Below, piece by piece: positions 5,196 through 61,493 of a stretch of DNA of 64,000 nucleotides (its first letter is position 1; each line of letters begins with the position of its first letter). A program made the translations under genes and the position numbers. The DNA comes from Candidatus Babeliales bacterium (GTDB taxonomy: Bacteria > Babelota > Babeliae > Babelales > Vermiphilaceae), in the NCBI GenBank assembly GCA_963743635.1, contig CAVUQO010000003.1:704001-768000 (forward strand). Reading direction: 5' to 3'. The notes beneath the pieces are model-generated. The model made no database searches, was not told the origin of the DNA, and saw only the letters and a list, made by a program, of their open reading frames with translations.

Positions 5196-5219
5196 GCGTA
5201 CCATCAAACGCTTTGTGCA

Positions 5220-9670: not shown

Positions 9671-9958
9671 AAGAATAACTCCTTTTTGCAAGAACATATT
9701 TTCAGGGAAATGGACCCTCGCGTTATCGTGTGCGAGCAATTTCCACGGTTAAATGAATACAATCTCCTTTCTTTGGTTAATTTTGGTCATGATTAATTTT
9801 TGTTCACTGTATACCTTCTTAACAAGTTATGAATTTTTTTTCTAGAGTTTTGTAAAAGAATATTGATTGGGTCGTTCAATTGGATGAAATATTGAAATAT
9901 ATTTTTGCGTATGATAGAAGGCTGTGAGTGCCGTTGCACAGAACATAAAGAGCCCGCG

Positions 9959-10254
9959 CCCTTCGATACGCGCGTGCCATGCTACCTAAGGATGAGATGA
10001 ATATTATGATAACGCGAACTCGATCTAAGGAATTCACATTAAGTCATGCTTTTTATAATAGAAATAGCCATTGGAATATTAGCTTTCGCGTTAGGCAATC
10101 ATGCCTTTAAATGAAACTAATCCGCACTATAATTAAAGGGCCCCCGATTTTCATCGGAGGCTCTTTTTAGTACTTCGTTTTGGTTGCTTTCTTATAATTA
10201 ATTATAAGATGTAACCGCTCATCCCGAGTAGCGCGGGACGTGCGTACCGAGGGG
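9959..10254. repeat. Inverted pair of REP-like elements (9959-9997 and 10215-10254)
   Basis: CCCTTCGATACGCGCGTGCCATGCTACCTAAGGATGAG vs reverse complement CCCCTCGGTACGCACGTCCCGCGCTACTCGGGATGAG. Confidence 0.7.
10135..10168 (-). terminator. Rho-independent terminator
   Basis: AAAGGGCCCCCGA/TCGGAGGCTCTTT imperfect stem, same family as the other array terminators. Confidence 0.75.
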
Positions 10255-12249: not shown

Positions 12250-12588
12250 AAGAATAACTCCTTTTAGTATGAAAACATGTTAGGGAATTGGTAACAGATG
12301 TTACGCAGTTGAAATTGAGTACGTGTTACTCGATAGGGTCTCCTTTCTTTTTTTTTAATAATTTTTTATTACAAATGTCATTGACCCATACACTACTATC
12401 TTTGAATTTTTTTTTCTAGAGTTTTTAAAATTTTCTTGATCTGATCGCTCATCCGAGAGGTGAAAGTGTTGTAAGTAAGGGAATAATCGGCTCAGGCGAA
12501 TTTTTATTTTTGCTATGATTGATCTACTGCGGCGGTTGGAGGAGTCGATTTTTTTGATTTTTGATCATGAATGAAGTTTGAAGAGAAT

Positions 12589-12627
12589 AAAAAAGAAGGC
12601 CTCTTGCAATTACAAGAGGCCTTCTTT
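12589..12627 (-). terminator. Rho-independent terminator
   Basis: AAAGAAGGCCTCTTG/CAAGAGGCCTTCTTT stem. Confidence 0.85.
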
Positions 12628-12650
12628 AAATATGATATTGATCGGACAAG

Positions 12651-14632: not shown

Positions 14633-15451
14633 ATGAGTAATCTTGCATGGTACACTCTCATGAGTATACAAATCATTGCTGAAAGTTTGCCCATTAGCAG
14701 TTCAGGGCATGTAGCATTAGTCGCTATGATAGCTGGTTTTTCAGCACAAGACTTAGTGTCAGTAGTGCATATGAATGGATCATGGTTATCGCAACAACTC
14801 ATGGCGCGCAGTATCGATTATTTTTTGCACGGACCAACGTGTATCATTGTAGCATTATTTTTTTATGATCGATGGATGGCATTGCTCAAGGCATGGCGCA
14901 AAACATGGCCGACCATCAGCACACTCATTTTTTATGTTGCCATTGCGGATATTATTACAGGATTATTTTTTGTGGGCTTCCGGTGTCTGCCGGTTTCATC
15001 TTTTCCGCTCGGATTGGGATTTTTAATCACGGCACTTATGTTGAGTTCGCTTTTCTATTGTAAGAGAGATGGAGAATCACTTACGATATCTAAAATGTTA
15101 GTACTTGGTATCGTGCAAGGGTTTGCATTGTTGCCGGGTATTTCTCGATTTGCCTCTACCTACACCGCTGCGCGATGGCTTGCGTTATCCCCACGGCATG
15201 CACTCGAAACCGCATGGATGATTCAGATGCCTTTGATGGTGGTGAGCTTCCTGTATAGTCTTATTGTATTTTGGCAAATCGGCATTCCTGATCAACTATT
15301 GAATATGGAAAGTGCATTCGTTATGATGGGTGCAAGTATTGGTGGGTGGTACGCGCTGCGGTTTGCAGCGTATGTAAGCTCCCGTAAAAAAATGTGGTGG
15401 TTTGCATGCTATATGATAGTCCCTCTGATACTGTGGGTACTATTCAAATAA
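14633..15451 (+). CDS. uppP: Undecaprenyl-diphosphate phosphatase (BacA family)
   Basis: ESLPISSSGH and LPGISR motifs, multiple TM segments. Confidence 0.9.
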   Translation: MSNLAWYTLMSIQIIAESLPISSSGHVALVAMIAGFSAQDLVSVVHMNGSWLSQQLMARSIDYFLHGPTCIIVALFFYDRWMALLKAWRKTWPTISTLIFYVAIADIITGLFFVGFRCLPVSSFPLGLGFLITALMLSSLFYCKRDGESLTISKMLVLGIVQGFALLPGISRFASTYTAARWLALSPRHALETAWMIQMPLMVVSFLYSLIVFWQIGIPDQLLNMESAFVMMGASIGGWYALRFAAYVSSRKKMWWFACYMIVPLILWVLFK

Positions 15452-15474
15452 AGCAGGTTATGGAGATACGAAAG

Positions 15475-17861
15475 ATGAAGCCAGAATATCCAAAGAAACG
15501 TTACGTAATGTCCCATTTTTTCATGCGAGAGATACTGATTCTCGTTCTTGGCGCAGTATCTCTTTTTTTATTGTGCTCTCTGATCACGCATCGCGCGACT
15601 GATAGTAGTTGGTTCTATTACAATAGTGCGCAGCATTCGGTTCGCAATCTCTGCGGAGTAGTGGGTGCTAATTGTGCTGCAGTATTGATTTATTTATTTG
15701 GGGCATCTGCATTGTGGATAGTTGGTCTTATGTTTTTTGCCTGTTTTTTATTGGTGCACCAACGCTCCATTGAGGATGAATGGGAGCGATTGGCTGCATT
15801 TGGTTTATTGATTACCGTGAGTAGTTCGCTATCACATGCATATTATTTTGATTTTTTGGGCAGTGCCGTGCCTGGTGGTTTTATTGGATTGCATACCTAT
15901 ACTTTTTTGTATACATGGCTTGATGGCTTTGGGGCTGCGCTCTTTTTATATACGATGCTTGCCATCAGTATTATTCTGCTTGGGCGATTTTCTTTTGCAC
16001 AAGTAAGTTCTGCAACGCAGGCAGTTGGAACCTTTGTAATGAGTAAAGATCGTTGTTGGATTCCGTTATATCGCGGAGCAACGAGCGCTGTCTATTATGG
16101 CGCAAAGCCATTGCGTATGATTGGGGCATATAGTTATAGATTTTTAAATGGTTCATTGCTTGGTGAACCTGCACAAGCGGCAGTAAATGAAGAATATCGA
16201 GCATTTGAAGAATTGTTATATAGCGCAAAGCGTCAGGAGCAGGAATCGGGAGCAGCGTCACATGCGATGCATAATCGCATGGCGCACCAGAACTGAGATG
16301 ACTTCAGCCTCAGCAAGAAATGCCTGCGGCTGAACATATTGCAATGCAAGATCATGCACCGCAATCAGAATCATCACCAACGCCAATCCGTCATGAGCAT
16401 ACAGTCTATGAGGAGTTGGATATCCCTCTGAATCATGAGCAACAATTATCAAAAGAAAAGGCAATATCGTTTACCAGCGCTTGACATTTTTATCGGTGTA
16501 CAAGATGAGCGGGACGATGAGCGGTTGATGCAAGATTTACAAAAATCAGCACTGATATTAGAAGAAAAATTGGAACGGTTTGGTGTCGCAGGCAAAGTGC
16601 AATCGATTAAACGTGGGCCCGTGGTTACATTATTTGAATATCAGCCAGATATTGACTCTAAAATCAGTAAAATCATTGCGCTTGAAGATGATTTGGCTAT
16701 GGCATTGCAGGCATTAAGCATTCGTATTATTGCTCCAATTCCGGGAAGATCAGTAGTCGGATTTGAAGTGGCTAATAGAGAGCGTAAAAATGTATCATTT
16801 GCTGATGTAGTTCATTCACAAGCATTTACGCAATGCAGTGATTCACTGCCATTAGTGCTTGGGTAAAGATACGATTGGCAACAATGTTGTGGTTGATCTT
16901 GCACGTATGCCGCATCTTTTAATTGCCGGGTCAACCGGTTCAGGAAAATCGGTTGCACTCAATGGGATGTTGGTTAGCTTGTTATGCAAGAAAACGCCGG
17001 ACGAATTGCGGATGGTACTCATTGATCCTAAACGATTAGAGTTTGCATCATATGCAGATATTCCCCATTTATTGGTGCCGATTGTTACAGATCCACGAAA
17101 AGTGCACTCCCATTTTAAAATGGGTGGTCAGACAAATGGAAGAGCGCTATGAGCGCATGGCCGCATGTGGAGTGCGCAATATTCAAGATTATAACGAACG
17201 TATGCAGCGGCATCCTGAATATGAAAAAATTCCCTTTATTGTCGTAGTCATTGATGAGCTTGCTGATTTGATGATGACGTCTGGACGAGAAGTGGAAGAT
17301 CTTATTACGCGTATTGCACAAATGGCGCGTGCGGCAGGGATTCATTTAATTGTTGCAACGCAACGTCCATCGGTTGACGTTATTACTGGACTTATTAAAG
17401 TGAATTTTCCGAGCAGAATTTCATTTAGAGTTACTTCAAAAATTGATTCGCGTACTATTCTTGATGCAAATGGCGCAGATAAATTATTGGGGCGTGGAGA
17501 CATGCTTTTCCTTGGTTCAAGCGATGCATTGTTGCGCCGCATACATGGTGCCTATGTGTCAGATAAAGAGATAGAACATTTAGTTGCGTATGTGCGTGCA
17601 GAGCGTCCTGTGCGGTATCTTGATCTGCAAGAAATTATTGCGCAGAGTGATGAAGCAACACTGAATGATGCGGATGATGAATTGTTAGGACAAGTAATTG
17701 CATTCCTCGATGAAGTGGACGAAGTTTCCATTTCGCTCATTCAGAGGCGCTTTCGCATTGGTTACAATCGTTCAGCGCGTATCATTGATCTGCTTGAATC
17801 GCGCGGTATGATTTCATCACCAGATGGAGGAAAAACACGCAAAGTAATTCGGGTAAATTAA
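15475..17861 (+). CDS. ftsK: DNA translocase FtsK (frameshifted, likely sequencing errors)
   Basis: N-terminal 4-TM domain, [34 protein letters not shown] and gamma domain IGYNRSAR spread over four ORF pieces. Confidence 0.92.
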
Positions 17862-35191: not shown

Positions 35192-35341
35192 TTTTTAACC
35201 TTTTTGTTACTTAAAATATGGATTAACATTTCTATTAGAATACCATGTTGGGAATTTTTGTAAAGGAGGTAAGGCATGGAGGGCAACTTCGTTCCTGAAG
35301 TACCCTCTTTTTCCAGATCTAGAATGCTAAAATGGCTGATA

Positions 35342-36706
35342 TTAGTTGCTTTGGATGACGCTTAGTAGGTAATCAGCACCAGGTTTGAGCGTGCGTTCCT
35401 GAGTAGTGAAATCAACCTTATAGATGCCGTAATGCTTATCGTAAGCGCCCCATTCATAGTTATCGAGCAATGCCCAGTGAATATAACTGCGTACATCGCA
35501 ACCATCTTTAATGGCTTGTGAAATAGCATAGAGATAACGTTGAGCCTGTTCGCGGCGCATATCGTTATCATCGGTTCCAATACCATTTTCGGTGATATAG
35601 ATCGGAATGTTGAGTGGGCGTGCCATTTTTTCATTGATCTCTTTTATCGCACGATACATGCCTTCTGGATAGAGCGTGTATTGTGGGTTTTGGGTATGAT
35701 ATTCTTCAGGATGTTTCAATAAGCCAAAGTTTTTCATGTAGGCATGGGAGTAATAATTGAGTGCAACGAAATCGAGCGACTCAGAAGCTTTTTTATTTTC
35801 GTGATATACGTTTACAAGACCTGGTATATACAGCTTAAATACGCCGGTGGTGCAGAAGGTGTATATGCAATCATTAGTAATGTAATTACCCATAGCGGCT
35901 GCTAAATGATCAAGAGGATTGTATGTGTTCCATGGCTCAAGCTGATAAATATTTTTTGAAAAAGTAATTTGAGATGAAGGATTAATTACTTTCATTGATT
36001 GATAAGCCTGTACGTGACCTTCAAGAATATTTTTCAATACCTCTCCCATGATCTGCATATCTTTCTTGCCAGGAGGTACTGTCCCCCTGAGATAGCCTTT
36101 AGTTGCATATGCACTTGGAGAAGTAAACGTTATCCAAAGATAGACGTATGGATGTAAACGTTCAAATACTTTTTGGCAGTAGGATGCATAATGATGCAGA
36201 TTTTGTTCTTTTTCAAAACCACCTTTATTCATGAACCATTGCGGGTCTGTGTAGTGGTGTAGCGTAAGGACTGGTTTAATACCCTGGCGAACGAGTTCCT
36301 TACAGACATCTTCGTAGTGATCCAATGCTGATTCATCGTACACGCCTTCTTGAGGTTCAATTTTGCTCCATGCGGTAGAAAATTTGAATAATGTAGCGCC
36401 GGTTTCTTTCAAGAGAGCTATGTCTGTTTCATAGCGATTCCAATGATCGCACGCATCCCCTGAGCAGTCAGTGACATGGCGCGTTCCATCAGGGAATGAT
36501 TCCTGTTCCCATTGGTACCAACTATCGTTTTCAGTTGCATGGCCCTCGATTTGGTGATGAGAGCTGCTAAAGCCAAATTCAAGCTTTGAAAGGTCGATAT
36601 TTTGGGTATTAATGGTCTCCCAATCCCAGTGAAGGGGAGAAAGAGGTTCGGCTATAGTGAGTTGAGCTGCGCACAGTATCAGTAAAAGAAGATTGTTCTT
36701 ATTCAT
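35342..36706 (-). CDS. Glycoside hydrolase family 1 protein (signal peptide; acid/base Glu absent)
   Basis: QIEG, DHWNRY, WSKIEP, TLHH, nucleophile ITENG, DNYEW; TFTSP in place of TxNEP. Confidence 0.9.
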   Translation of the reverse strand: MNKNNLLLLILCAAQLTIAEPLSPLHWDWETINTQNIDLSKLEFGFSSSHHQIEGHATENDSWYQWEQESFPDGTRHVTDCSGDACDHWNRYETDIALLKETGATLFKFSTAWSKIEPQEGVYDESALDHYEDVCKELVRQGIKPVLTLHHYTDPQWFMNKGGFEKEQNLHHYASYCQKVFERLHPYVYLWITFTSPSAYATKGYLRGTVPPGKKDMQIMGEVLKNILEGHVQAYQSMKVINPSSQITFSKNIYQLEPWNTYNPLDHLAAAMGNYITNDCIYTFCTTGVFKLYIPGLVNVYHENKKASESLDFVALNYYSHAYMKNFGLLKHPEEYHTQNPQYTLYPEGMYRAIKEINEKMARPLNIPIYITENGIGTDDNDMRREQAQRYLYAISQAIKDGCDVRSYIHWALLDNYEWGAYDKHYGIYKVDFTTQERTLKPGADYLLSVIQSN

Positions 36707-36932
36707 GAAGGATTCCTCGGGATTTCTATATTTTTTATGATCAGTTATCAGTATAGCAGGGGCGATGCGGGGGTCAAAGGGGGTCTCTGGATGGGTGTTC
36801 TTAGGTTGGGGGCGATGAAATGCACGGTAAAGGAATAGTTAAAAGCAGCTTTTTAGTCCCTTATTCGCGATTTTGTTTCTTTTTGAAGGTATAAAAGAGT
36901 AACGTGTGGTCGTAACATAGAGAGGGGATCCT

Positions 36933-37988
36933 ATGAAGATGACTCGTGTTCTTATGATAAGTATGATGGGTGGGATATCATTAAACTGTTCAACATTCTT
37001 GATTGCAGGGGGAGATGGCGATGAGCAGATGGCTCTAGCAAGTCCCGGTCATAGAACGCGATTCGGTCAATTATTTCATCGATCGTCTTCTAATATGAGC
37101 GCAACATCCTCCTCCGGTTCAAATCATCACAGTGATAGTGGTTTGATTGTTGGCTCACTGGATTCGATTGAGATCGGTGGGTCATCGCCTTCTGCTAGTA
37201 CGAGTAGTAAAATTAAGATTTTAAAAAAATTCTTATCTCGGTCTTCTCGAAGGATGGATGTTTCATCCTCTCCTAGACAGAGTCAATCATTAAGTGGGCC
37301 GGCTGATGCGATATCGGTGTCATATGGAAAGCTTATAGAAAGAGCAGAGCACGCTTTATTAGGTCTTATGAAAGTGGCGCCAGAGATATTCCTTGATGGC
37401 GATAGTGATATAAGAGGACTCAATGAAATTGATGCTTTTCTTGGAAGATTTGAAAGTATTCAACATAAGCTTAATACCTATTGTAAAAGAATAGATCCTA
37501 ATTTTGCAGTATCATATATGAAAACGTTAAGCATTAATTTTGCAAAAGTCAGCAATACGAATGTTAATCCCTGGCATATGTATAAACATCTTGGGGGTAT
37601 ATATACTCATCTTGGTACAACCGTAGAAGATGGCATAAGTTTATCATGCGCAGACTGTAGAACATTGCTTGAACAGCGGCAGCGCAGTCATCCAGAAGAA
37701 GAAGCTTTATTGCGTCAAGTAGAATACCTATTTCGCAATAGCATAGCCAAGCAGGAGTTTGATATCTTGCTACAAGGCGGAGTCCAAGAGCTTCTGAGGT
37801 TAAAAAAAATTAAACCAGAAAAATCTAAGCAGGAAATTGAGCACTACTTATACTTGATAACCTTTACGAATGGCATGAGAGAGGAATTGCTTGAATTCAA
37901 AAGAAATAATCCCACATCTATCAAATCTCCTCTCGTTGTTCATTCGACTCATGATCTCTCAAGCCATGCATTTTCTCTTGATGACTAA
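36933..37988 (+). CDS. Hypothetical secreted protein with Ser-rich N-terminal region
   Basis: 351 aa ORF, GAGGGG RBS, signal-like N-terminus. Confidence 0.75.
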   Translation: MKMTRVLMISMMGGISLNCSTFLIAGGDGDEQMALASPGHRTRFGQLFHRSSSNMSATSSSGSNHHSDSGLIVGSLDSIEIGGSSPSASTSSKIKILKKFLSRSSRRMDVSSSPRQSQSLSGPADAISVSYGKLIERAEHALLGLMKVAPEIFLDGDSDIRGLNEIDAFLGRFESIQHKLNTYCKRIDPNFAVSYMKTLSINFAKVSNTNVNPWHMYKHLGGIYTHLGTTVEDGISLSCADCRTLLEQRQRSHPEEEALLRQVEYLFRNSIAKQEFDILLQGGVQELLRLKKIKPEKSKQEIEHYLYLITFTNGMREELLEFKRNNPTSIKSPLVVHSTHDLSSHAFSLDD

Positions 37989-38297
37989 AGGTTAAAACGA
38001 ATATCGAGCAAATCGCCACCCCCTCTATGCTTTCAGCTTCTTCGGGCTTGGGATTATTGCATGCGATTGTTCTCATACATTGAATCGAATATCCAAGAGG
38101 TCGCCATCAGCAACGATATAGTCTTGACCTTCGCGGCGAATCTTTCCTAAATCTTTTAATTTAGCTTCGCTGCCAGCTTGGATGAGATCTTTAGCATTGA
38201 ATACTTCAGCGCAAATAAAACCTCGTTCTAAATCTGAGTGAATTTCTCCCGCTGCTTTACGCACCGTCATGCCATTGCGTATTGGTCAGGCGTGAGC
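37986..38297. repeat. ~310-bp direct repeat of 40156-40466 (ychF 3' end plus downstream DNA)
   Basis: Collinear high similarity, including GGGATTATTGCATGCGATTGTTCTCATACATTGAATCGAATATCC. Confidence 0.95.
38073..38297 (-). pseudogene. ychF: Truncated duplicate of ychF 3' ~75 codons
   Basis: AHA*PIRNGMTVRKAAGEIHSDLERGF...DIRFNV; differences from ychF are mostly synonymous; W->TGA at 38286-38288. Confidence 0.92.
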
Positions 38298-38410
38298 TTT
38301 TGGGTACATGCGGCAATAAATCTTGTGATTTGATGTAGAAATATGGCAGACTGGATAAAAATGCAAGAAGAGAGATATCTTGGATGGATAATCCTAAAAG
38401 GGGATGTGGG

Positions 38411-40096
38411 ATGAAGAAAGTAATAGTGAGTATAATCTTGGTTGTGGGCTTGACAGGGATCTGTGGTTGGCAATTATTGGCTGTGACCATGCGGGTGATT
38501 GGCGTGCCGCGGCCGTCGGCTGTATCAGGGGAAATTGGGTATATTAATGAAACGGTGGATTTGGATGATGAAGATGTCATGACTTTAGAGACATTTTCAG
38601 ATTTAATAGCGCAAAAGCAAAGATTGAATCTTCCCTATGTTATTGCGCGCGTTGAAAATCCTGGTGGCTTTCATCGTTATTATGATGCGGAGGCATTGAA
38701 TCGTCAGTTGTTTGGAGCTCCGCAAGGTACACCATTGACGGATATTTATCGCGTTCCAATAGAGAGGCTTGATTATTTTATTAAGGATCCTGCTCGGAAT
38801 GAATTTAGGTATATGGAATCGTTTCATGTGGCTGAGCTTAGTGCCAAGAGGGCAGCAATGCATACACGTCTTGGTATGATGTATTATAAAGGTGAAGGAG
38901 TTGCTCGAGATTATGCTAGGGCACGTAATTACTTTGAGCAAGTAATAGCCAATGTGGATCAGCCTGTCTATAGCGTGTATGCGCACCGTGTCAATAGGGC
39001 GTATGCACATACACGTCTTGGTGAGATGTACTATAATGGTGAAGGAGTTGATCGAGATTATGCTAGGGCGCGTGGTCACTATGAGCAAGTAATAGCTGAG
39101 AATGTATCTGATCCCAATAGGCCGTTCGATATACGTGTACTAGTTGATGCGAGTGGGTCTGATCCCAATAGGTCGTTAGCGCAGATACGTCTTGGTGAGA
39201 TCTACTATAATGGTTTAGGAGTTGATCGAGATTATGCTAGGGCGCGTGCTTACTATGAGCAAGCAATAGGTAATACTCGTTCGCCTGGTGTCAATAGGGC
39301 GATGGCGCAGGCGCGTCTTGGTGACATCTATTATAAGGGTGAAGGGGTTGCCCGAGATTATGCTAGGGCACGTGCTTACTTTGAGCAATTAATAGCCAAT
39401 GCGGATGCGTCTGCTCGCAATAGGGCGTATGCGCATACACGTCTTGGTGACATGTATTATAAAGGTGAAGGGGTTGCTCGAGATTATGCTAGGGCACGTG
39501 ATTACTATGAGCAAGTAATAGCTAATGCGAATGCGCAGGGTGTCAATAGGGCGTATGCGCATACACGTCTTGGTGACATGTATTATAAAGGTGAAGGAGT
39601 TGCTCGAGATTATGCTAGGGCACGTGATTACTATGAGCAAGTAATAGCCAATGCGAATGCAAGTGGTGCCGATAGGGCGGTAGCGCAGGTACGTCTTGGT
39701 GACATGTATTATAAAGGTGAAGGAATTGCTCAAGATTATGCTAGGGCACGGGATTACTATGAGCAACTAATAGCTAATGCGAATGTAAGTGGTGCCGATA
39801 GGGCGGTAGCGCAGGTACGTCTTGGTGACATGTATTATAAAGGTGAAGGAATTGCTCAAGATTATGCTAGGGCACGTGATTACTATGAGCAAGTAATAGC
39901 TAATGCGAATGCAAGTGGCGCCGATAGGGCGGTAGCGCAGGTACGTCTTGGTGACATGTATTATAATGGTGAAGGAATTGCTCAAGATTATGATAGGGCA
40001 CGTGATTACTATGAGCAAGTAATAGCTAATCCAGACATAACTTCTCAAGACAAGCAGAATGTGCAAATGCGTCTTGATTCAATGGTTCGCGAATAA
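38411..40096 (+). CDS. Secreted Sel1-like repeat protein (9 repeats) with U-box-like N-domain
   Basis: RLGxxYYxGxGVxRDYARARxYYEQ x9, 126-bp units; signal peptide MKKVIVS. Confidence 0.88.
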   Translation: MKKVIVSIILVVGLTGICGWQLLAVTMRVIGVPRPSAVSGEIGYINETVDLDDEDVMTLETFSDLIAQKQRLNLPYVIARVENPGGFHRYYDAEALNRQLFGAPQGTPLTDIYRVPIERLDYFIKDPARNEFRYMESFHVAELSAKRAAMHTRLGMMYYKGEGVARDYARARNYFEQVIANVDQPVYSVYAHRVNRAYAHTRLGEMYYNGEGVDRDYARARGHYEQVIAENVSDPNRPFDIRVLVDASGSDPNRSLAQIRLGEIYYNGLGVDRDYARARAYYEQAIGNTRSPGVNRAMAQARLGDIYYKGEGVARDYARARAYFEQLIANADASARNRAYAHTRLGDMYYKGEGVARDYARARDYYEQVIANANAQGVNRAYAHTRLGDMYYKGEGVARDYARARDYYEQVIANANASGADRAVAQVRLGDMYYKGEGIAQDYARARDYYEQLIANANVSGADRAVAQVRLGDMYYKGEGIAQDYARARDYYEQVIANANASGADRAVAQVRLGDMYYNGEGIAQDYDRARDYYEQVIANPDITSQDKQNVQMRLDSMVRE

Positions 40097-40241
40097 GTTA
40101 AATTTATGGAGGGCTTATCAGAAAATTCTAATAAGCCCTCATTTTAATAATTCTTTAAACGTTAAAACGAATGTCGAGTAAATCGCCGCCCGTCTACGCT
40201 TTCAGCTTCTTGGGCCTTGGGATTATTGCATGCGATTGTTC

Positions 40242-41357
40242 TCATACATTGAATCGAATATCCAGGAGGTCGCCATCAGCGACGATATAGTCTTGGCCTT
40301 CGCGGCGAATTTTACCTAAATCTTTCAATTTAGCTTCACTGCCGGCTTGGATGATATCTTTAGCGTTGAACACTTCAGCGCAAATAAAGCCTCGCTCTAA
40401 ATCAGAGTGAATTTCTCCTGCTGCTTTGCGGACAGTAGTGCCACCGCGAATTGGCCATGCGTGTGCTTCTTTTGGCCCGCAGGTGAAGAAGGTTATCATG
40501 CCAAGGTGTTTGTATGTGCTGCGAATAATAACATCAAGTGAGCGTTCTTTGAGACCCACAAGCCCCATCATCTCATCCGCATCTTCATGAGAGAGTTGCG
40601 CAAGTTCGCCTTCTAATTTTGCACAGACCGGAATAACGCGGTCAGCGCCAAACTCTTTAACGAGCGCTTGATAATGAGGATTTTTCGCGAGTTCAACGGG
40701 GTCAACTTCATGTTCAGCAACGTTTGCAATAATGAGTGCATTCTTGGTTGCGAGTAACGGTACTGTTTCAATGTTAGGAGAATCGGCCAGAAGCTTTTTG
40801 GCTTTTGCGACGTCTTCTTTATTGAGGGCAGCCATAAGATTATTAAGGAGTTCAAGCTCCTGCTCGAGTTCACGTTTTTCGAGCGGTTTTTGCTGCGAAG
40901 CTTTGATTTGTTTTACGACCTTTTCAATACGCTTTTCAACTGATTCAATATCTTTGAGTAAAAGCTCTGAAACGATAATGCTATAGTCTTCAAGCGGATC
41001 GATCGTTTCGCCCGAATGTAGGATGTCTGGATCTTCAAAGCAGCGCAGTACGTGCAGAATGAGATCGACTTCTCGAATATGGCTTAAAAATTGGTTACCA
41101 AGGCCTTCGCCCGACGCAGCGCCCTTAACGAGTCCTGCAATGTCAACGAATGTAACATTGGCAGGAATAAGTTTTTGCGAACCATAGATCTTGGCAAGGG
41201 CATTGAGGCGTTCGTCTGGAACTTCAGTAATAGCCACATGCGGATCGATAGTGCAAAAAGGGTAGTTTTCTGCAGGGACGGATGATTTGGTCAAGGCGTT
41301 AAAGAGGGTTGATTTACCAACATTGGGAAGCCCAACAAGGCCAGCTTTTATACCCAT
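40242..41357 (-). CDS. ychF: Ribosome-associated ATPase YchF
   Basis: GLVGLPNVGKSTLFNALT, NYPFCTIDP, DIAGLV, GEGLGNQFL, TGS domain. Confidence 0.97.
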   Translation of the reverse strand: MGIKAGLVGLPNVGKSTLFNALTKSSVPAENYPFCTIDPHVAITEVPDERLNALAKIYGSQKLIPANVTFVDIAGLVKGAASGEGLGNQFLSHIREVDLILHVLRCFEDPDILHSGETIDPLEDYSIIVSELLLKDIESVEKRIEKVVKQIKASQQKPLEKRELEQELELLNNLMAALNKEDVAKAKKLLADSPNIETVPLLATKNALIIANVAEHEVDPVELAKNPHYQALVKEFGADRVIPVCAKLEGELAQLSHEDADEMMGLVGLKERSLDVIIRSTYKHLGMITFFTCGPKEAHAWPIRGGTTVRKAAGEIHSDLERGFICAEVFNAKDIIQAGSEAKLKDLGKIRREGQDYIVADGDLLDIRFNV

Positions 41358-41553
41358 AGGTTATGATCTCATATATAGGAGGGATAGTGATATGTTTTGT
41401 ATTAAGTGTGCGCTAAATTGGGCAATAATGCAATATCTTGAGCGGTTATAGCCAGCGTGGGGATGAGAACCTTGCATTAAAGGATGAAGGTATGCTACAC
41501 AAAAAGGGTATATGAGAGTATCTCTATTTAACCGCAAATATTAGGAGCGTGTT

Positions 41554-41784
41554 ATGGAAAAATCGTCAACAATGCATTTAATCGGTAAAGCTGCTTGGCT
41601 TTTAACAGCACTTGCATCAATCCATGTTGGGGCAGTTGCATTATTTGGTTCCCAATATAATTTACTGCAATATTTACCTCAATATTTGCCAGAAATGCTT
41701 GTAAGCGCCGTGTACGCTTTATATCTCATAGCGGGTGTTTATAGCCTTGTTATGCTATTTATGCCATGTGGTTGCTGCGAATAG
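41554..41784 (+). CDS. DUF378-like small membrane protein
   Basis: Two TM segments, AWLLTALASIHVG...LYLIAGVYSL; AGGAG RBS. Confidence 0.7.
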   Translation: MEKSSTMHLIGKAAWLLTALASIHVGAVALFGSQYNLLQYLPQYLPEMLVSAVYALYLIAGVYSLVMLFMPCGCCE

Positions 41785-41813
41785 TCTACAACCAAAGGAT
41801 GTAGGAAGGTATT

Positions 41814-42035
41814 ATGGAAGTCAAAAGAAGGTTTGATGAGCTTGCTTGGTTGTTTACTGCAAGTGCTTCAATACAGTATGGAGTTAAACAATTGCAGCAA
41901 TATACAATGCCTAATCTTCGACCAGAAAATCTAGGTTTTTCAGACTACTTCAATATGTTTTTCTATGGCATGTATATCGTGCTCGGAGTCTACAGTTTGA
42001 TTAGTTTGCTGATAAAGCAGATTCTAAGATCCTAG
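41814..42035 (+). CDS. Small membrane protein, paralog of 41554..41784
   Basis: AWLFTASASIQYG...YIVLGVYSL. Confidence 0.65.
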   Translation: MEVKRRFDELAWLFTASASIQYGVKQLQQYTMPNLRPENLGFSDYFNMFFYGMYIVLGVYSLISLLIKQILRS

Positions 42036-42062
42036 GTCTTTATGGCTACCTAACGTCTTCCG

Positions 42063-42134
42063 TTCGAGTAATTAAATAAGTAAGGCGGGCTCAGTATATA
42101 CACTGAGCCCGCCTTACTTATTTAATTACTCGAA
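42063..42134. terminator. 33-bp perfect inverted repeat directly after dnaK stop
   Basis: TTCGAGTAATTAAATAAGTAAGGCGGGCTCAGT-atatac-reverse complement. Confidence 0.8.
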
Positions 42135-44010
<1,876 letters not shown>

Positions 44011-47806: not shown

Positions 47807-49656
47807 ATGGAAAGAAATAAAATTATAGCAGTTGCCGTGCTGGCGATTGGCATTATTGCATGGCGTGTGGGCGCGATGGAGCAGGGCGGGCAAGCGCAGG
47901 CTGGTCAAGAAATGATAACGGTCTATCAACTCAATAGCACTGGCAATGAGGAAAGCGTCAAGGTTCCATGGGATCGGCTGCGGCTTTTTGAAATGTTTAG
48001 CGATATGCGTGGTTATATGCAGGAGATGAAGCCATCTGAAGCAAATAGATTGCTGCTCGCTCATAGTATTTCAATGGATATCTTCAAAGCATTATTAGCG
48101 GAATTGCCGTGGGTGCAGCAGGTGCGGATTAATAGGCAGCAAAATGAGACTGAAGAGCAAGCGGCAAAAAGAATAGCGAAAACCATGCCGGCGGTAGCAT
48201 TCAATCAAGATAGATTAAGCGCATTGGCGGTTCAATTAAAGGCAGCAGATTTTTTACAACAAAAGGCATTAATAGAATTGTATACACATCAGATAGTAGG
48301 CATGATCATGTCCGATGCATCAATGAGATTGTTGAGTCAAGGCGATCAGGAATACGGTCGCGGCGTCGCTGCCTTAGTGAATGAGTTGCCTCCTGAACTG
48401 GCGAGGCATATTCTGAAAAGTATGCCAAGAGCAGTAATATGGCTTGAGCAGTATACGATTCGGCATAATGGTTTGGTTGACTCAGTAGCGATATCAGCAG
48501 ATGGCAATAAGGTGGTGACCGGATCTGAGGATGGTACGGCAAAGATAGTTGCATGGGATGGCAATGCATGGATTGAGCAGCATACGATTCGGCACAATGG
48601 TGTGGTTAGATCAGTAGCGATATCAGCAGATGGCAATAGGGTGGTGACGGGATCTGCAGATAATACGGCAAAGATAGTGGTATGGGATGGCAATGCATGG
48701 ATTGAGCGGCATGCGATTACGTATAATGTTTGGGTTGTATCAGTAGCGATATCGGCAGATGGCAATAAAGTGGTGACGGGATCTTTAGATAATACGGCAA
48801 AGATAGTTGCATGGGATGGCAATGCATGGCTTGATCAGTATACGATTACGTATACTGATTGCGTTGACTCAGTAGCGATATCAGCAGATGGCAATAAGGT
48901 GGTGACGGGATCTAGTAATAATACGGCAAAGATAGTGGTATGGAATGGCAATGCATGGGTTGAGCAGCCTCCGATTGCGCATAATGGCTGGGTTTGGTCA
49001 GTAGCGATATCGGCAGATGGCAATAAAGTGGTGACGGATCTCGAGATAATACGGCAAAAATAGTGGCATGGAATGGCAATGCATGGATTGAGCAGCATAC
49101 GATTCGGCATACTGGTGTGGTTAGATCAGTAGCGATATCAGCAGATGGCAATAGGGTGGTGACGGGATCTCAAGATGGCACGGCAAAGATAGTAGCATGG
49201 AATGGCAATGCATGGATTGAGCAGCATACGATTCAGTGTAATAGTTGGGTTTGGTCAGTAGCGATATCAGCAGATGGCAATAAGGTGGTGACGGGGGGGC
49301 ATGATAATACGGCAAAGATAGTAGCATGGAATGGCAATGCATGGATTGAGCAGTATACGTTTCAGTGTAATCGTTGGGTTGCATCAGTAGCAATATCAGC
49401 AGATGGCAATAGGGTAGTGACGGGGGGGCATGATAATACGGCAAGGATAGTGGGGCTTATATCAAGATCATTGCCTGGACTATCTGATTTTAATGCCTTG
49501 TTATTTGAGCATCTATTGCTGTGGGCAAAGAGAAGTGGGCAGAAAATATCTAATAGAGGATGGGTGCGCGATATGCGAAACCATATTTTGTGGGAAGAAG
49601 CAGAAACAAATACCGCAGAAGAACTTCAAAAATTAATTCGAGAAACTATGCAATAG
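47807..49656 (+). CDS. Secreted WD40-repeat protein with Skp1/BTB-like and F-box-like N-region (1-nt frameshift near 49040)
   Basis: Eight 129-bp units SVAISADGNxVVTGSxDxTAKIVxW; one unit is 128 bp. Confidence 0.88.
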
Positions 49657-56718: not shown

Positions 56719-57807
56719 ATGAAAACTAAAACATCGTCAAAAGATACCACTTCGAATAAACAACAAAGTGATATGGATCTCAAGAAAAAAGCCTTAGAAG
56801 TAACGTTTTCCCAGATTGATAAGCATTATGGCACTGGCGCGGTCATGCTTTTGGGGCAGTCGACAAATAGTAATATCGAAGCTATCTCTACTGGCTCAAT
56901 CTTGATTGATGAAGTCACCGGTATTGGCGGACTTCCGCGTGGCAGAATCGTTGAAATTTATGGTCCTGAAGCTTCCGGTAAGACTACCCTAGCAATGCAG
57001 GCAATAGCGCAAGCCCAACGCAATGGAGGTATATGTGCCTTCATAGACGTCGAGCATGCCCTTGATCCTTCTCATGCGCGTAAATTAGGCCTTGATGTGG
57101 ACAATCTTATTATCTCTCAGCCGGATTACGGTGAGCAGGCTCTTGATATTGCTGAAATGTTGGTAAGATCTGGTGCAATTGACATCGTAGTAATCGACTC
57201 GGTAGCGGCTCTGGTTCCAAAGGCTGAGCTTGAAGGGGATATGGGTGATTCTCATATGGGTCTTCAGGCGCGGTTGATGTCCCAGGCATTGCGTAAGTTG
57301 ACTCCAGTGGTTCATAAATCAAAGACGGTTTTGATATTTATCAACCAAATTCGTCAAAATATTGGGGCTATGCCGTTCGCGAACAAAGAAACTACAACTG
57401 GTGGTAATGCCTTAAAATTCTATGCTTCCCTACGCCTTGATGTGCGCCGTATTGCAAGTTTAAAGAAAAATGAAGAGCAAATTGGTAATCGCATTGCGGT
57501 TAAAGTAGTTAAAAATAAAATGGCGCCTCCATTTAGACGTGCAGAGTTAGATCTGCTCTTTAACGAAGGTATCAGTAGAGAACTCGATCTTTTAGATGCA
57601 TCACTTCATTTTGGTGTTATTCTTCAGTCTGGTTCGTGGTTCTCATTTGATGGCGTGAAGTTTGCCCAAGGGCGAGAACAAGCGCTTGCCTATCTGAAAG
57701 AACATAAGGATCAGGTCGCATTGATCTTCTCAAAAATAAAAGAAGCAATAGCTGCAAGAAAACTTGCAATTATTGAAGCTCCAGGGGAAATGGAACAAGA
57801 AGCGTGA
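56719..57807 (+). CDS. recA: Recombinase A
   Basis: [37 protein letters not shown]. Confidence 0.98.
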
Positions 57808-59927: not shown

Positions 59928-61493
59928 ATGGAATTAAGTTCGGCATTTATTGTCATTACCGGGGCATGCTTCGTTATAGGCGCAATACTATTGCTCCTAT
60001 ATGCCAAGAAAGCGCATTGCTGAAGCAAATGAATTATTGTTTGATTCGAAGAATAAATGGAAAGATGTTAAACGCGAAATTGAAAATGAACGTCGTGAAT
60101 CTGCCCTAAAAATAAAAGATGAAATCTATAAAAAGCGCAGCGAATTTGAACTTGAGATGAAGCGGGATCGAGTTGAACTTGATCGTCTTCAAAATAAGCT
60201 CACATCAAAATATGAAAGCATTGAGAAAAAAGAGCAACATATCGATGAGCTTCGCCGTGAACTTCAAGAAAAAGAGCGTACATTTTTTCGCAAAGAAGAT
60301 GCATTGCGAGCGAATGAAAATAAGCTCAAGACTTTTATACAATGATCTCATTACCAAGCTTAGAACGAACCAGCAATATGACACGCGAAGATGCGCGTAA
60401 AGAGTTGGCTCATACGCTTGAAGATGAAGTGCGTCTTTCTAATCAAAAATATATCCAAAAAATTGAAGAAGAAGCTCGTCAATCGGGCAAAGAACGAGCA
60501 TTGGACATTGTTATCGGCGCTATGCAACGATACACTGCCGATCAGGTTGCCCCTCATGCATCAAGCGTTGTACATTTACCCAACGATGAAATGAAGGGTC
60601 GTATTATCGGTAAAGAAGGCCGTAATATTAAGTCGCTCGAAATGGCAACTGGTATGGAATTCGTAATTGGTGATACGCCAGAAATAATCACCATCTCTGG
60701 TTTTAACCCTATACGCCGTGAAGTTGCGCGCCGCACTCTTGAAAAATTGATTTCAGACGGACGCATCAACCCAACTCGCATTGAAGAAACCGTTGCTCAA
60801 GTTGAGAAAGAACTGGAAGAAATAATCCAAGAATACGGAAAAGATGTGGTTCTTGAGTTTAATCTTCAAGGCATGCATCCTGAACTGGTCACTATGCTTG
60901 GAAAGCTACAATTTAGAACGAGTTTCTCTCAAAACGTGTTAATGCATTCTAAGGAAGTAGCATTAATTTCGCGCATGATTGCTCAAGAATTAGGTCTCAA
61001 TCCTGATATCGCATTGCGTGGCGGTCTCTTGCATGATATCGGTAAAGCGGTCAGTGCAGAAGTAGAAGGCCCACATGCTATTATCGGTGGAGATATCGCA
61101 AAACGATGCGGCGAAGATCCACGTGTGGTGAACGCAATTGCTGCCCATCACCAAGAAGTTCCTTACGAATCAGTCTATGGACCGATTGTGGTTATCGCCG
61201 ACACCATTTCAGCGGTACGTCCAGGAGCTCGCCGTGAAACCTTATCTGCCTACATCAAGCGCCTTGAAAAGTTGGAAGAAATTGCCAACTCATTTGAAGG
61301 GGTTAAGAAGGCATATGCGCTTCAAGCGGGTCGAGAGGTTCGCATTATTGTTGAAGAAGATCGTCTGACCGATGATGAAGCTTCAATTATGGCGCGTGAC
61401 ATTGCCAAGAAGGTTGAAGAAGAAATGAACTTCCCTGGCCAAATCAAAGTTAATGTCATTCGTGAAAAACGTTCCATTGAATATGCGCGATAG
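59928..61493 (+). CDS. rny: Ribonuclease Y (two frameshifts, likely sequencing errors)
   Basis: N-terminal TM, coiled coil, KGRIIGKEGRNI (KH), LLHDIGKA (HD), RPGARRE. Confidence 0.95.

What the first reader, a model, noticed from the sequence alone, without database searches (positions are those of the whole stretch)
36933..40466. ychF 3' end as a cargo-accretion site: 310-bp direct repeat flanking an effector-like gene
Seen: 37986-38297 repeats 40156-40466 and brackets the Sel1 gene. The duplicated ~75 codons differ from ychF mostly at synonymous sites, so they were recently part of a functional ychF allele, and now carry a W->TGA. Two unrelated secreted-protein genes each converge on a ychF tail. 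No integrase or transposase is in the window. Known: integrative elements often target and restore 3' ends of conserved genes. Inference: repeated Campbell-type or homologous capture of effector cassettes, excisable as a ~2.17-kb circle.
Basis: partly seen in the sequence, partly recalled or inferred. Interest (0 to 1): 0.75.

Follow-up and report, generated by a model that had tools for sequence, protein, structure and literature searches.

The report
Displaced ychF tail marks gene gain
A Sel1-repeat protein gene was recombined in behind the housekeeping gene ychF of an uncultured Dependentiae bacterium, leaving a dead second copy of the ychF gene end; this is a known kind of recombination scar, and several other genes of this genome carry one too.

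Summary
37986-38299 and 40156-40468 are a 314-nt direct repeat (88.9% identity, only two copies in the 1.45-Mb genome). It covers the last ~75 codons of ychF plus 87 nt, and it brackets one Sel1-repeat gene.

Copy A is a dead tail: W301 is TGA and the E297 codon is missing. It differs from the live tail by 20.5 synonymous against 5.5 non-synonymous changes. Its peptide equals, at 73 of 73 residues, the tail of a living YchF that is 96% identical to this one. So it is a displaced allele, not a local duplicate.

Short-read contigs from two studies confirm all four repeat borders. No integrase lies in the window.

New here:
- An older 11-codon ychF relic is nested 51 nt behind each ychF stop codon.
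- At least 9 other genes of this genome (ftsY, a Mur ligase, an S41 peptidase, spoIID and others) carry orphan tails. Most of these also show synonymous-biased divergence.

Best reading: general, homology-anchored 3'-end displacement, like homology-facilitated illegitimate recombination (HFIR), not a ychF-specific attachment site. A Campbell-type circle remains possible. One 356-nt contig has the predicted circle junction, but it may be an assembly mis-join.

This scan has reported the same kind of scar in many other genomes. Verdict: a new member of a known kind, of moderate interest.

The parts
36933..37988 (+). Gene for a 351-aa protein of unknown family, converging on the displaced tail. 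It is probably the original downstream neighbour of ychF in the recipient lineage.
   Evidence: ORF list. No Pfam family and no usable Atlas hit. Weak homologues in 6 of 79 other genomes of the family, aligned to residues 162-338. Unrelated to the Sel1 protein (BLASTP E 0.71). The hydrophobic N-terminus was judged by eye only.
37985..38020 (-). Older ychF tail relic, copy A. It reads GGDLLDIRFNL followed by TAG.
   Evidence: Against the real tail: 7 synonymous and 4 non-synonymous changes (P = 4e-3).
38022..38042 (-). 21-nt motif in the 50-nt spacer, copy A version. It has 2 mismatches to the copy at 40191-40211.
38073..38302 (-). Displaced, dead ychF 3' tail (copy A), about 75 codons plus the stop codon. 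W301 is TGA at 38286-38288 and the E297 codon is missing.
   Evidence: Its peptide matches the last 74 residues of living YchF P0001 at 73 of 73 positions, the stop excluded. Covered without any difference by an X1 contig.
38300..40155 (.). Unique inserted segment of about 1.86 kb between the repeat copies. Repeat unit plus insert make 2,169 nt.
   Evidence: Spacing of 2169 nt. No other copy in the genome apart from distant paralogues of the coding part.
38384..40096 (+). Cargo gene: a 570-aa protein with a lineage-specific N-terminal domain and 9 Sel1 repeats encoded by 126-bp tandem units. An alternative start lies at 38411.
   Evidence: PF08238 E 7e-62; PF17010 (DUF5092) 28.1 bits against a cut-off of 27. 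Tandem repeat families D1 and D2. Paralogues of the N-terminal domain cluster at C3:326-335 kb, the best at 53% amino-acid identity.
40109..40140 (.). Strong hairpin in the cargo segment between the Sel1 stop codon and the relic. It is probably a two-way terminator for Sel1 and ychF.
   Evidence: Minimum free energy -19 kcal/mol (+ strand) and -22.4 kcal/mol (- strand), z-scores -5.1 and -6.1, 0 of 200 shuffles as good. The simple terminator scan did not list it.
40155..40190 (-). Older ychF tail relic, copy B. It reads GGDLLDIRFNV followed by TAA.
   Evidence: Against the real tail: 9 synonymous and 2 non-synonymous changes over 11 codons (P = 8e-5).
40191..40211 (-). 21-nt motif AAGAAGCTGAAAGCGTAGACG in the spacer between the ychF stop codon and the relic. 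It is shared with a dispersed short-repeat family of this genome.
   Evidence: Exact second copy at C3:782364. 16 sites in the genome with up to 4 mismatches.
40216..40264 (.). Longest stretch identical in both repeat copies (49 nt), spanning the ychF stop codon. It is the candidate crossover zone for any exchange between the two copies.
   Evidence: The run length is not significant by itself (P = 0.064).
40242..41357 (-). Intact ychF gene (371 aa). Its last ~75 codons are repeat copy B.
   Evidence: PF06071 and PF01926. 57-70% amino-acid identity to the full-length YchF matches in 26 of the 30 relatives. 96-88% identity to 7 uncultured close relatives.

Best explanation
The second ychF end is a scar of DNA exchange between two related lineages, not a mobile-element attachment site.

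Inferred sequence of events:
1. The recipient carried a ychF with the copy-A tail, followed by the 36933-37988 gene.
2. DNA arrived from a relative about 11% different in this stretch. It carried a whole ychF 3' part with the copy-B tail, the 87-nt downstream piece and the Sel1 gene.
3. That DNA was paired through ychF homology on one side and joined without homology on the other side, inside the resident ychF at about codon 295.
4. The incoming ychF end became the working one. The Sel1 gene was gained. The resident's last ~75 codons were pushed 2.17 kb downstream, where they later picked up a stop codon.

An earlier event of the same kind, with a more distant partner, left the 11-codon relic 51 nt behind the stop codon.

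The same process, homology-facilitated illegitimate recombination (HFIR) or 3'-end displacement, acted at several other conserved genes of this genome. It usually added genes for proteins of no known family.

Shown: the anatomy, the allelic nature of the orphan tails, their recurrence, and the absence of a recombinase nearby.
Inferred: which copy is donor and which is recipient, the one-sided illegitimate joint, and DNA uptake as the route.
For: 1. In-situ duplication is rejected. There are 20.5 synonymous against 5.5 non-synonymous changes in 74 codons. P = 6.5e-9 under neutrality. P = 3.7e-5 under a model where the live copy changes only synonymously and the dead copy drifts.

2. Three of copy A's four residue substitutions (N, M, L) lie at sites that vary among the 19 relatives shown. 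The other substitution (W301 to TGA) and a one-codon deletion (E297) hit sites invariant in those relatives.

3. A living YchF, P0001, is 96% identical overall. It has copy A's tail at 73 of 73 residues and differs from copy B's tail at 3 of 74.

4. The nested relic GGDLLDIRFNV* differs from the real tail by 9 synonymous and 2 non-synonymous changes (P = 8e-5). It lies only 51 nt behind the stop codon. That gap is too small for an element or a circle.

5. The two events cut ychF at different codons, about 75-77 and 11 from the stop, so there is no fixed attachment site.

6. The pattern recurs across the genome. Of 15 candidates taken by eye from 78 downstream hits, 11 are orphan tails. Two are at ychF and 9 are at other genes. 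The other genes include ftsY, a Mur ligase, an S41 peptidase, spoIID, a hydrolase and a DUF4097 protein.
- 5 of the 9 are synonymous-biased at P < 0.01.
- Leaving out the last 11 codons, which were used for the search, 6 loci pooled give 26 synonymous against 11 non-synonymous changes. P = 1.7e-9 under neutrality and 6e-5 under the in-situ model.
- Three loci were left out of the pool. C2:489259 was set aside because it looks neutral. C2:296447 is 99% identical, with only 1 difference. C3:181758 has only 11 codons.

7. No integrase or transposase family was found in the 52 window ORFs scanned. The genome's tyrosine recombinases lie at C3:608.7 kb, C3:774.5 kb and on contig C1.

8. RecA (window 56719-57807), DprA and a ComEC-type match are encoded.

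9. The cargo gene and the 36933-37988 gene are unrelated (E 0.71), so this is not a tandem duplication.

10. Close relatives with other ychF alleles and other downstream DNA co-occur in the same samples (X4 record 29).
Against: - The parental arrangements were not seen. No close relative's DNA could be fetched: the best in the two contig collections is 67-70% amino-acid identity. So donor and recipient roles, and microhomology at the joint, are inferences.
- One 356-nt contig of run X4 (record 28) joins the cargo 3' end and copy-B downstream sequence to copy-A-type coding sequence. It is B-like at 8 of 8 diagnostic sites in 40160-40215. It is A-like at 13 of the 14 diagnostic sites where the table could list a difference (40265-40404). 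The contig's total of 20 differences fits A letters at the 6 unlisted sites near its end as well. That is what a Campbell circle, a tandem copy or a donor of another make-up predicts, and one-sided replacement does not predict it.
- The non-coding 60 nt at 40156-40215 differ less (8 substitutions plus a 1-nt indel) than the synonymous divergence of 0.59 would suggest. The first 60 nt of the repeat differ more (12 of 60). Neither is explained.
- One of the 9 other loci (C2:489259) looks like a plain tandem duplication decaying neutrally: 7.5 synonymous, 20.5 non-synonymous, in-frame stops, and a paralogous gene after the orphan. Three others have too few changes to tell.
- HFIR is reported as rare where it has been measured (passage in PMC5361080). 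Natural competence is not shown for this organism. The ComEC match covers only profile positions 7-139 of 270.
Confidence: 0.5

Rival explanations
1. Campbell-type insertion. A circular DNA of about 2.17 kb carried a ychF tail fragment, the downstream piece and the Sel1 gene. It recombined by RecA with the resident ychF tail through a single crossover, most likely in the 49-nt identical stretch. This produced the two mosaic repeat copies. The reverse reaction would release the circle.
For: - The direct repeats flank a unique insert, as a single crossover predicts.
- The 49-nt identical run around the stop codon is the longest uninterrupted homology available.
- X4 record 28 has exactly the predicted circle or donor junction: cargo 3' end, copy-B downstream sequence, identical run, then copy-A-type coding sequence.
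- RecA is encoded.
Against: - It cannot make the relics that lie 41, 51 and 203 nt behind their genes (ychF relic, C3:181758, ftsY). A second mechanism would then be needed for the same kind of scar.
- No empty-site or circle joint was reported in the contigs of 4 runs, although contigs drop rare forms.
- Record 28 has depth 2.8 in a run where the copy-A flank has no cover. A k = 31 assembly graph can mis-join through a 49-nt shared stretch. In the same run the copy-B coding contig (record 30) starts inside that stretch.
- The length of the identical run is not significant (P = 0.064).
Confidence: 0.25
2. Remnant of an integrase-driven integrative element that targets the ychF 3' end and brings a replacement tail, as e14 and phage 21 do at icd. 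The integrase was lost or acts from elsewhere in the genome.
For: - The anatomy is the same as icd / e14 / icdC: an intact gene running into the insert and a C-terminal pseudogene at the far end (passages of PMC13626634).
Against: - No recombinase lies in the 1.86-kb insert or in the 52 window ORFs scanned.
- The insert holds a single gene, which belongs to a paralogue family of this genome.
- The two ychF events have different cut points.
- At least 9 other anchor genes with tails of 36-199 nt would need as many site specificities.
- Orphan gene starts seem to occur as well, for example C2:190963 and C2:299139. That does not fit 3'-end targeting.
- No ychF tail sequence occurs elsewhere in the genome, including the 41-kb contig C1 that carries an integrase.
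Confidence: 0.1
3. Local (in-situ) duplication of the ychF tail, followed by decay of one copy, with the Sel1 gene inserted later or duplicated along with it.
For: One other locus of the genome (C2:489259) does look like this. The divergence is neutral-like and the genes after each tail are paralogous.
Against: - The synonymous bias rejects it for ychF (P = 3.7e-5).
- A living allele has exactly copy A's tail.
- The genes behind the two tails are unrelated.
Confidence: 0.02
4. Assembly artefact: two strains of a metagenome bin were stitched together through the shared ychF tail.
For: - The genome comes from a metagenome and its completeness is 85%.
- Several essential genes in the window are split, including ftsK, rny and the genome's only dnaK.
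- Several ychF alleles co-occur in the samples.
Against: Independent short-read contigs cross every unique border of the structure without a difference: X1 over 35300-38908; X3 over 38270-38452 and 40286-40485; X2 over 40001-40245 and 40216-42095. They come from two studies. Only the link across the 49-nt identical stretch on the copy-B side is not bridged by a listed contig.
Confidence: 0.03

Closest known systems
C-terminal (3'-end) displacement with orphan fragments at rhs, cdiA and T6SS effector loci, proposed to arise by homology-facilitated illegitimate recombination. Source: Kirchberger et al. 2017, PMC5361080, passages read. Jackson et al. 2009 on rhs was seen only in its reference list.
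   Same: An incoming module is anchored by homology in the conserved upstream part. The new 3' end becomes the working one, and the old 3' end is shifted downstream as an orphan. Successive events stack up, and no integrase is involved. Here this corresponds to tail A plus the nested 11-codon relic, with allelic, synonymous-biased divergence.
   Different: The anchor here is a housekeeping GTPase/ATPase gene, and other housekeeping genes elsewhere in the genome, not a polymorphic toxin gene. The new tail encodes the same protein end rather than a new toxin domain. The gain is a separate, convergent gene, not a toxin-immunity pair.
Homology-facilitated illegitimate recombination in transformable bacteria (Acinetobacter, S. 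pneumoniae, P. stutzeri). References de Vries & Wackernagel 2002, Prudhomme et al. 2002 and Meier & Wackernagel 2003 were seen in the reference list of PMC5361080. The abstract of PMC3240628 was seen in a search listing.
   Same: One homologous anchor plus one illegitimate end integrates foreign DNA next to a conserved gene. The genome encodes RecA, DprA and a ComEC-type protein.
   Different: Those are laboratory events with known parents and with microhomology measured at the joint. Here the parents are not available, the joint is only inferred (a possible CCAAAAG-type microhomology at 38296-38303, judged by eye), and DNA uptake is not shown.
Prophage e14 (and phage 21) at the 3' end of icd in E. 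coli, with the icdC pseudogene. Source: PMC13626634, passages read. Hill et al. 1989 was seen in its reference list.
   Same: The intact gene ends in insert-borne sequence. A C-terminal pseudogene copy sits at the far end of the insert. The two tails differ mostly by synonymous or conservative changes. Recombination between them restores a chimeric working gene.
   Different: e14 is a 15-kb element with its own integrase and SOS-induced excision. Here the insert is 1.86 kb with one gene and no recombinase, and excision is not shown.
Pneumococcal prophage attachment site beside ychF. Source: PMC8637289, Table 4 passage and an introduction passage read.
   Same: ychF neighbourhood used as an insertion point for foreign DNA.
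   Different: That site lies between a DUF951 gene and ychF, next to the prophage int gene, on the upstream side of ychF. It belongs to an integrase-bearing prophage and does not duplicate the ychF 3' end.

Membership tests
3'-end displacement scar (HFIR type) | Intact gene followed downstream by an orphan copy of its own 3' end, with new DNA in between | tested here: met
   ychF 40242-41357, insert 38300-40155, orphan 38073-38302.
3'-end displacement scar (HFIR type) | The orphan stems from a different, once-functional allele and is not a local copy | tested here: met
   20.5 synonymous against 5.5 non-synonymous changes; P = 3.7e-5 against the in-situ model. Living YchF P0001 has the same tail at 73 of 73 residues.
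3'-end displacement scar (HFIR type) | Illegitimate joint with short microhomology at the inner border of the orphan | not testable with these tools
The border at 38296-38303 shows a possible CCAAAAG-type overlap and a missing codon, judged by eye only.
3'-end displacement scar (HFIR type) | No dedicated recombinase; general recombination and DNA-uptake functions present | tested here: met
   No integrase or transposase family in the 52 window ORFs scanned. RecA and DprA are present. The ComEC match is only partial. Competence itself was not tested.
Integrase-driven integrative element at a gene 3' end (e14/icd type) | Integrase gene inside the element next to an attachment site | tested here: not met
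   The insert holds the Sel1 gene only. The nearest PF00589 match is about 29 kb away, at C3:774518.
Integrase-driven integrative element at a gene 3' end (e14/icd type) | A fixed core site that is reused, with an identical core in both repeat copies | tested here: inconclusive
   A 49-nt identical run exists but is not significant (P = 0.064). The older relic marks a different cut point, 11 codons from the stop.
Integrase-driven integrative element at a gene 3' end (e14/icd type) | Excised circle and empty site detectable | tested here: inconclusive
   No joints in the contigs of 4 runs. One ambiguous 356-nt contig has the predicted junction. Raw reads were not available.
Tandem segmental duplication | The two units are homologous over their whole length | tested here: not met
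   Only 314 of 2,169 nt are repeated. The genes behind the two tails are unrelated (E 0.71).
Sel1-repeat proteins (PF08238), for the cargo gene | Several Sel1 repeats above Pfam's cut-off | tested here: met
   204 bits against a cut-off of 30.7, with 9 matched stretches.
YchF/OLA1 (PF06071 plus PF01926), for the anchor gene | G domain plus YchF C-terminal domain, full length | tested here: met
   PF01926 E 4.5e-22 and PF06071 E 8.8e-32, profile positions 1-84 of 84. Full-length matches (query residues 1-371) in 26 of the 30 relatives; the other four have split, contig-end or only weak matches.

The most novel reading that the evidence does not exclude
Orphan gene tails are a genome-wide, datable record of gene gain in this Dependentiae lineage. 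On this reading, host-dependent bacteria with small genomes repeatedly take up DNA of diverged relatives and anchor it in conserved housekeeping genes (ychF, ftsY, a Mur ligase, an S41 peptidase, spoIID). In doing so they add lineage-specific genes for proteins of no known family, probably exported or host-directed. Each event leaves a scar whose synonymous divergence tells how distant the donor was. That would make one-sided homeologous recombination, not mobile elements, the main route by which such genomes renew their host-interaction genes.
Probability: 0.4. Interest if true: 0.6.

Novelty: new member of a known kind. Interest (0 to 1): 0.4.

Why it matters
The organism belongs to the Dependentiae (Babeliales). 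YchF homologues at 68-71% identity carry those names. As far as I recall, this phylum consists of uncultured bacteria with small genomes that depend on protist hosts.

How such genomes acquire new exported or host-directed proteins without obvious mobile elements is poorly documented. A search for Dependentiae together with competence, recombination and horizontal gene transfer found 4 papers. By title and abstract, none is about this.

The locus gives a clean, two-generation example. The displaced allele is still alive in a relative, and the same genome shows the process at other conserved genes. So the locus is useful as evidence of recombination among lineages about 10% apart, and as a marker for dating gene gains.

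It is not a new mechanism. The scan has already reported the same kind of scar in many other genomes.

Tried and rejected
- A third ychF relic at 37899-37934 (61% to the 36-nt repeat family, 87-nt spacing). Rejected: it lies within residues 323-334 of the 36933-37988 protein, inside the stretch that homologues in other genera align to (up to residues 335-338).
- The 49-nt identical run as a significant recombination core. Not significant: P = 0.064 for 35 differences in 314 nt.
- Structured RNA or a known RNA family in the 87 nt behind ychF. Rfam found nothing relevant at E up to 5 in 37800-40500. Folding gave z = +1.2 and +0.3.
- Promoter and terminator scan of 36600-41600. The counts were not above the shuffles.
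- Closer relatives' DNA. Metagenome contigs gave a best match of 67% and genome contigs 70% amino-acid identity. Records very near the window's genome may be left out of these collections. So the context of YchF P0001-P0007 could not be seen.
- ychF tail relics in relatives. There were 0 extra hits in 29 loci of 20 relatives: 19 loci with about 1.5 kb either side of ychF and 10 with 8-10 kb either side. All are other genera, at most 70% identical.
- Reads. The contigs of 4 runs showed no empty-site or circle joint. Contigs drop rare variants, so this says little.
- ESM Atlas for both cargo proteins. No usable hit.
- A DNA-based scan comparing orphan gene starts with orphan gene ends. It was too noisy to count, because neighbouring paralogues share signal-peptide starts. 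Only single examples were taken from it.
- A ychF tail sequence elsewhere in the genome, for example as an attachment site on contig C1. None was found.
- The 21-nt spacer motif as a clue to a small mobile element that made the relic. The motif recurs in a dispersed repeat family. A target-site duplication would diverge neutrally, which the relic does not. The link was left open.

Full report
**Observation**

The repeat is real. The repeat finder reports 38020-38299 / 40189-40468 at 89%. blastn of 36900-41400 against the whole 1,454,283-base genome extends it to 37986-38299 / 40156-40468: 314 nt, 88.85% identity, and no third copy.

On the minus strand the repeat is the last ~75 codons of ychF plus 87 nt after the stop codon. 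ychF is 40242-41357, 371 aa, with the YchF C-terminal domain and a G domain.

Between the two copies lies one gene, 38384-40096 (+). It encodes a lineage-specific N-terminal domain and 9 Sel1 repeats on 126-bp tandem units.

The second copy reads AHA*PIRNGMTVRK...DGDLLDIRFNV*. The stop codon replaces W301 and the E297 codon is missing. Both residues are invariant in the 19 relatives shown.

The gene 36933-37988 (+) ends exactly at the outer edge of copy A. The Sel1 gene ends 60 nt from copy B.

**Is the structure an artefact?**

The window is part of a three-contig genome from a metagenome, with 85% completeness. Several essential genes in the window are split, including the only dnaK of the genome. 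Caution was therefore needed.

Twelve public runs from five studies hold part of the stretch, and two hold about 80% of its sampled words. I laid the contigs of four runs from two studies on it:
- X1: a 5,612-nt contig covers 35300-38908 with no difference. It crosses both borders of copy A and contains the TGA.
- X3: contigs cross 38299/38300 and 40468/40469.
- X2: contigs cover 40001-40245 and 40216-42095.

Every unique border is therefore confirmed. One run may be the source sample. The only link not bridged by a listed contig is the one across the 49-nt identical stretch on the copy-B side.

**What the second copy is**

Over 74 codons the two tails differ by 20.5 synonymous and 5.5 non-synonymous changes (dS 0.59, dN 0.033). 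That has P = 6.5e-9 under neutrality. It has P = 3.7e-5 under a model in which the live copy changes only synonymously while the dead copy drifts.

Three of the four residue substitutions (N, M, L) fall at sites that vary among relatives.

A protein search found YchF proteins 96-88% identical to this one in uncultured samples. The closest, P0001, matches copy A's tail at 73 of 73 residues, the stop excluded. It differs from copy B's tail at 3 of 74.

Copy A is therefore the end of a real, different ychF allele. It was displaced and has since been hit by one stop codon and one codon deletion.

More distant YchF homologues, at 68-71% identity, are named Candidatus Dependentiae or Babeliales by their sources. 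This places the organism in that phylum.

**A nested older scar**

The 87 nt behind each ychF stop codon end in a second, short ychF end. Behind copy B it reads GGDLLDIRFNV plus TAA (40155-40190). Behind copy A it reads GGDLLDIRFNL plus TAG (37985-38020).

Against the real tail the copy-B relic has 9 synonymous and 2 non-synonymous changes in 11 codons (P = 8e-5). It was therefore also once a working tail, from a much more distant allele.

It lies only 51 nt behind the stop codon, and it cuts ychF 11 codons from the end rather than about 75. So at least two displacement events hit this gene at different points. The older one predates the split of the two alleles that now form the repeat.

A seeming third relic, at 37899-37934, was rejected. 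It lies inside the conserved part of the 36933-37988 protein.

**Surroundings and relatives**

No integrase or transposase family was found in the 52 window ORFs scanned. The genome's three tyrosine recombinases lie at C3:608.7 kb, C3:774.5 kb and on the 41-kb contig C1.

Among 31 genomes, the window's own included, only this one has a second match to the ychF C-terminus. None of 20 relatives has a tail relic near ychF. All of these relatives belong to other genera, at 70% YchF identity or less.

Synteny is M48 peptidase, MerR, outer-membrane protein, glycosyl hydrolase family 1 (GH1), ychF, dnaK. It is broadly kept. In one relative GH1 follows ychF after 320 nt.

What lies directly behind ychF differs in 10 of 10 relatives examined: a GH3 enzyme, an 810-aa WD40 protein, large proteins of unknown family, a sulfate permease, TspO, or nothing.

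In run X4 a third ychF allele (record 29, 33 differences in 294 nt) diverges completely 38 nt after its stop codon. The region behind ychF is therefore variable even among close, co-occurring lineages.

The cargo gene is not obviously foreign. Its N-terminal domain has paralogues clustered at C3:326-335 kb, the best at 53% identity. It has weak matches in 5 of 79 other genomes of the family.

**The same scar elsewhere in the genome**

I scanned every ORF of 120 aa or more for a second copy of its last 11 residues followed by a stop codon, within 5 kb downstream. This gave 78 hits, most of them tandem paralogues.

I followed 15 candidates. Of these, 11 are orphan tails: 2 at ychF and 9 at other genes. 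The other 4 are full-length paralogues or an internal fragment.

The anchor genes include ftsY, a Mur ligase, an S41 peptidase, spoIID, a hydrolase and a DUF4097 protein. The orphans are 36-199 nt long and lie 41-3,960 nt behind the intact gene.

The DNA in between holds genes in either orientation. Many have hydrophobic N-termini (judged by eye), and 6 of 7 tested have no Pfam family.

How the 9 other loci diverge:
- Five are synonymous-biased at P < 0.01.
- Three have too few changes to tell.
- One (C2:489259) is neutral-like, with in-frame stops and a paralogous gene after each tail. I read it as a plain tandem duplication.

The search itself favours conserved last codons, so I repeated the count without the last 11 codons. 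Six loci pooled give 26 synonymous against 11 non-synonymous changes. That has P = 1.7e-9 under neutrality and 6e-5 under the in-situ model. The pool leaves out three loci. C2:489259 was set aside because it looks neutral. C2:296447 is 99% identical, with only one difference. C3:181758 is only 11 codons long.

Orphan gene starts seem to exist as well, for example at C2:190963 and C2:299139. That scan was too noisy to count.

**Mechanism**

The scars share these traits: tails of once-functional alleles, different cut points, many anchor genes, gaps as short as 41-203 nt, no recombinase nearby. Together they fit a general process rather than a ychF-specific attachment site.

That process is as follows. 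DNA of a diverged relative pairs through a conserved gene. It is joined without homology at its other end, inside the resident gene. The resident's tail is left behind the newly gained DNA. This is homology-facilitated illegitimate recombination. It is the model proposed for displaced 3' ends and immunity-gene arrays at T6SS, rhs and CDI loci (passages of PMC5361080).

RecA, DprA and a partial ComEC-type match are encoded. An intact MutS is encoded too.

For the 2.17-kb unit itself, a Campbell-type insertion of a circle remains a serious rival. Contig record 28 of run X4 (356 nt, depth 2.8) runs from the cargo 3' end through copy-B downstream sequence into copy-A-type coding sequence:
- It is B-like at 8 of 8 diagnostic sites in 40160-40215.
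- It is A-like at 13 of the 14 diagnostic sites in 40265-40404, where the table could list a difference.
- Its total of 20 differences fits A letters at the 6 further sites near its end, which the table does not list.

This is the predicted circle, tandem or donor junction, with the switch inside the 49-nt identical stretch. However, a k-mer assembly can mis-join through exactly such a stretch. In the same run the copy-B coding contig starts inside it, and the copy-A flank has no cover. I could not lay reads a second time.

The identical stretch is not significantly long (P = 0.064).

An integrase-driven element of the e14/icd type (passages of PMC13626634) shares the anatomy. It fails on the recombinase and on the fixed site.

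**Unexplained**

- The non-coding 60 nt at 40156-40215 differ less than the synonymous sites would suggest (8 substitutions plus a 1-nt indel).
- The first 60 nt of the repeat differ more (12 of 60).
- The spacer between the ychF stop codon and the relic contains a 21-nt motif. It recurs exactly at C3:782364 and, with up to 4 mismatches, at 16 sites in all, some inside a dispersed short-repeat family. One such site abuts another partial gene copy at C2:98589-98711.

**Novelty**

A word search of this scan's earlier notes returned 32 findings in at least 32 genomes. The eight shown (rpoD, sbcC, gdh, a UDG gene, uvrA, rplA, a kinase gene and hsdR) describe the same kind of displaced tail with the same reading. 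I reached my reading before I saw them, and they are unchecked notes, not support. They do mean that the kind is already on record.

Particular to this case are the two nested generations at one gene, a living allele that matches the dead tail, and the genome-wide series in a Dependentiae genome.

A pneumococcal prophage site beside ychF is in print. It lies on the upstream side of ychF and belongs to an integrase-bearing prophage (PMC8637289). My search for ychF together with integration site and integrase found 5 papers. I opened that one only; none of the 4 listed concerns the ychF 3' end by title or abstract.

Noticed in passing
window 42341-43952 (dnaK), 15394-17861 (ftsK), 60001-61493 (rny), 47807-49656 (WD40 gene): Several genes, some essential, are split into 2-4 ORFs by frameshifts. 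dnaK is the only HSP70 gene in the genome, and its breaks are not in long homopolymers. These are either consensus errors of the assembly or real decay. The ychF region itself matches short-read contigs exactly.
   Followed up: partly
window 40191-40211 and 38022-38042; G000 C3:782364, C2:454161, C2:98721, C3:582733, C2:431492 and others: The 21-nt motif AAGAAGCTGAAAGCGTAGACG is flanked by short inverted repeats of varying sequence. It recurs at 16 sites with up to 4 mismatches. Some sites sit as a roughly 67-nt module inside a dispersed repeat of about 170-240 nt that has 25 or more copies (a MITE-like family). One copy abuts an orphan fragment of a glyoxalase gene (C2:98589-98711). No Rfam family matched in the stretch searched (window 37800-40500).
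   Followed up: partly
G000 C3:288354-289244 (ftsY), C2:350640-351395 (Mur ligase), C3:567045-568505 (S41 peptidase), C2:391399-392706 (spoIID), C3:122950-123720 (DUF4097), C3:769978-770874, C3:181758-182222, C2:296447-297397, C2:489259-489897: Nine further loci have an orphan copy of the gene's own 3' end 41-3,960 nt downstream. Five have synonymous-biased divergence. The genes gained in between mostly have no known family.
   Followed up: partly
G000 C2:189483-189683 / 190846-191046 and C2:299125-299286 / 309868-310029: These look like orphan copies of gene starts, the mirror image of the tail scars. At the first, one gene for a putative secreted protein lies between the copies. At the second, a 10.7-kb block of such genes lies between them.
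   Followed up: no
window 40204-40497, as covered by run X4 record 29: A third ychF allele, about 89% identical, is present in a peat sample. Its sequence becomes unrelated 38 nt after the stop codon, so it lacks the relic at this place.
   Followed up: partly
window 432-14495 (C3:697-716 kb): An array of six or more large paralogous genes (614-708 aa, no Pfam family). Most share the same C-terminal peptide, GVWFKIGTSYN, or a near variant.
   Followed up: no
G000 contig C1 (41 kb), 2909-8104: A small separate contig of 40.2% G+C carries a tyrosine integrase, a ParB-like nuclease and a GNAT acetyltransferase. An 87-nt direct repeat lies at 4149 and 7388. It may be a plasmid or an episome. It holds no ychF tail sequence.
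   Followed up: partly
window 40109-40140: A strong hairpin (z = -5 to -6 on both strands) lies between the Sel1 stop codon and the ychF relic. ychF has no structure of its own in the 87 nt after its stop codon, so its terminator now seems to lie in the inserted segment.
   Followed up: yes
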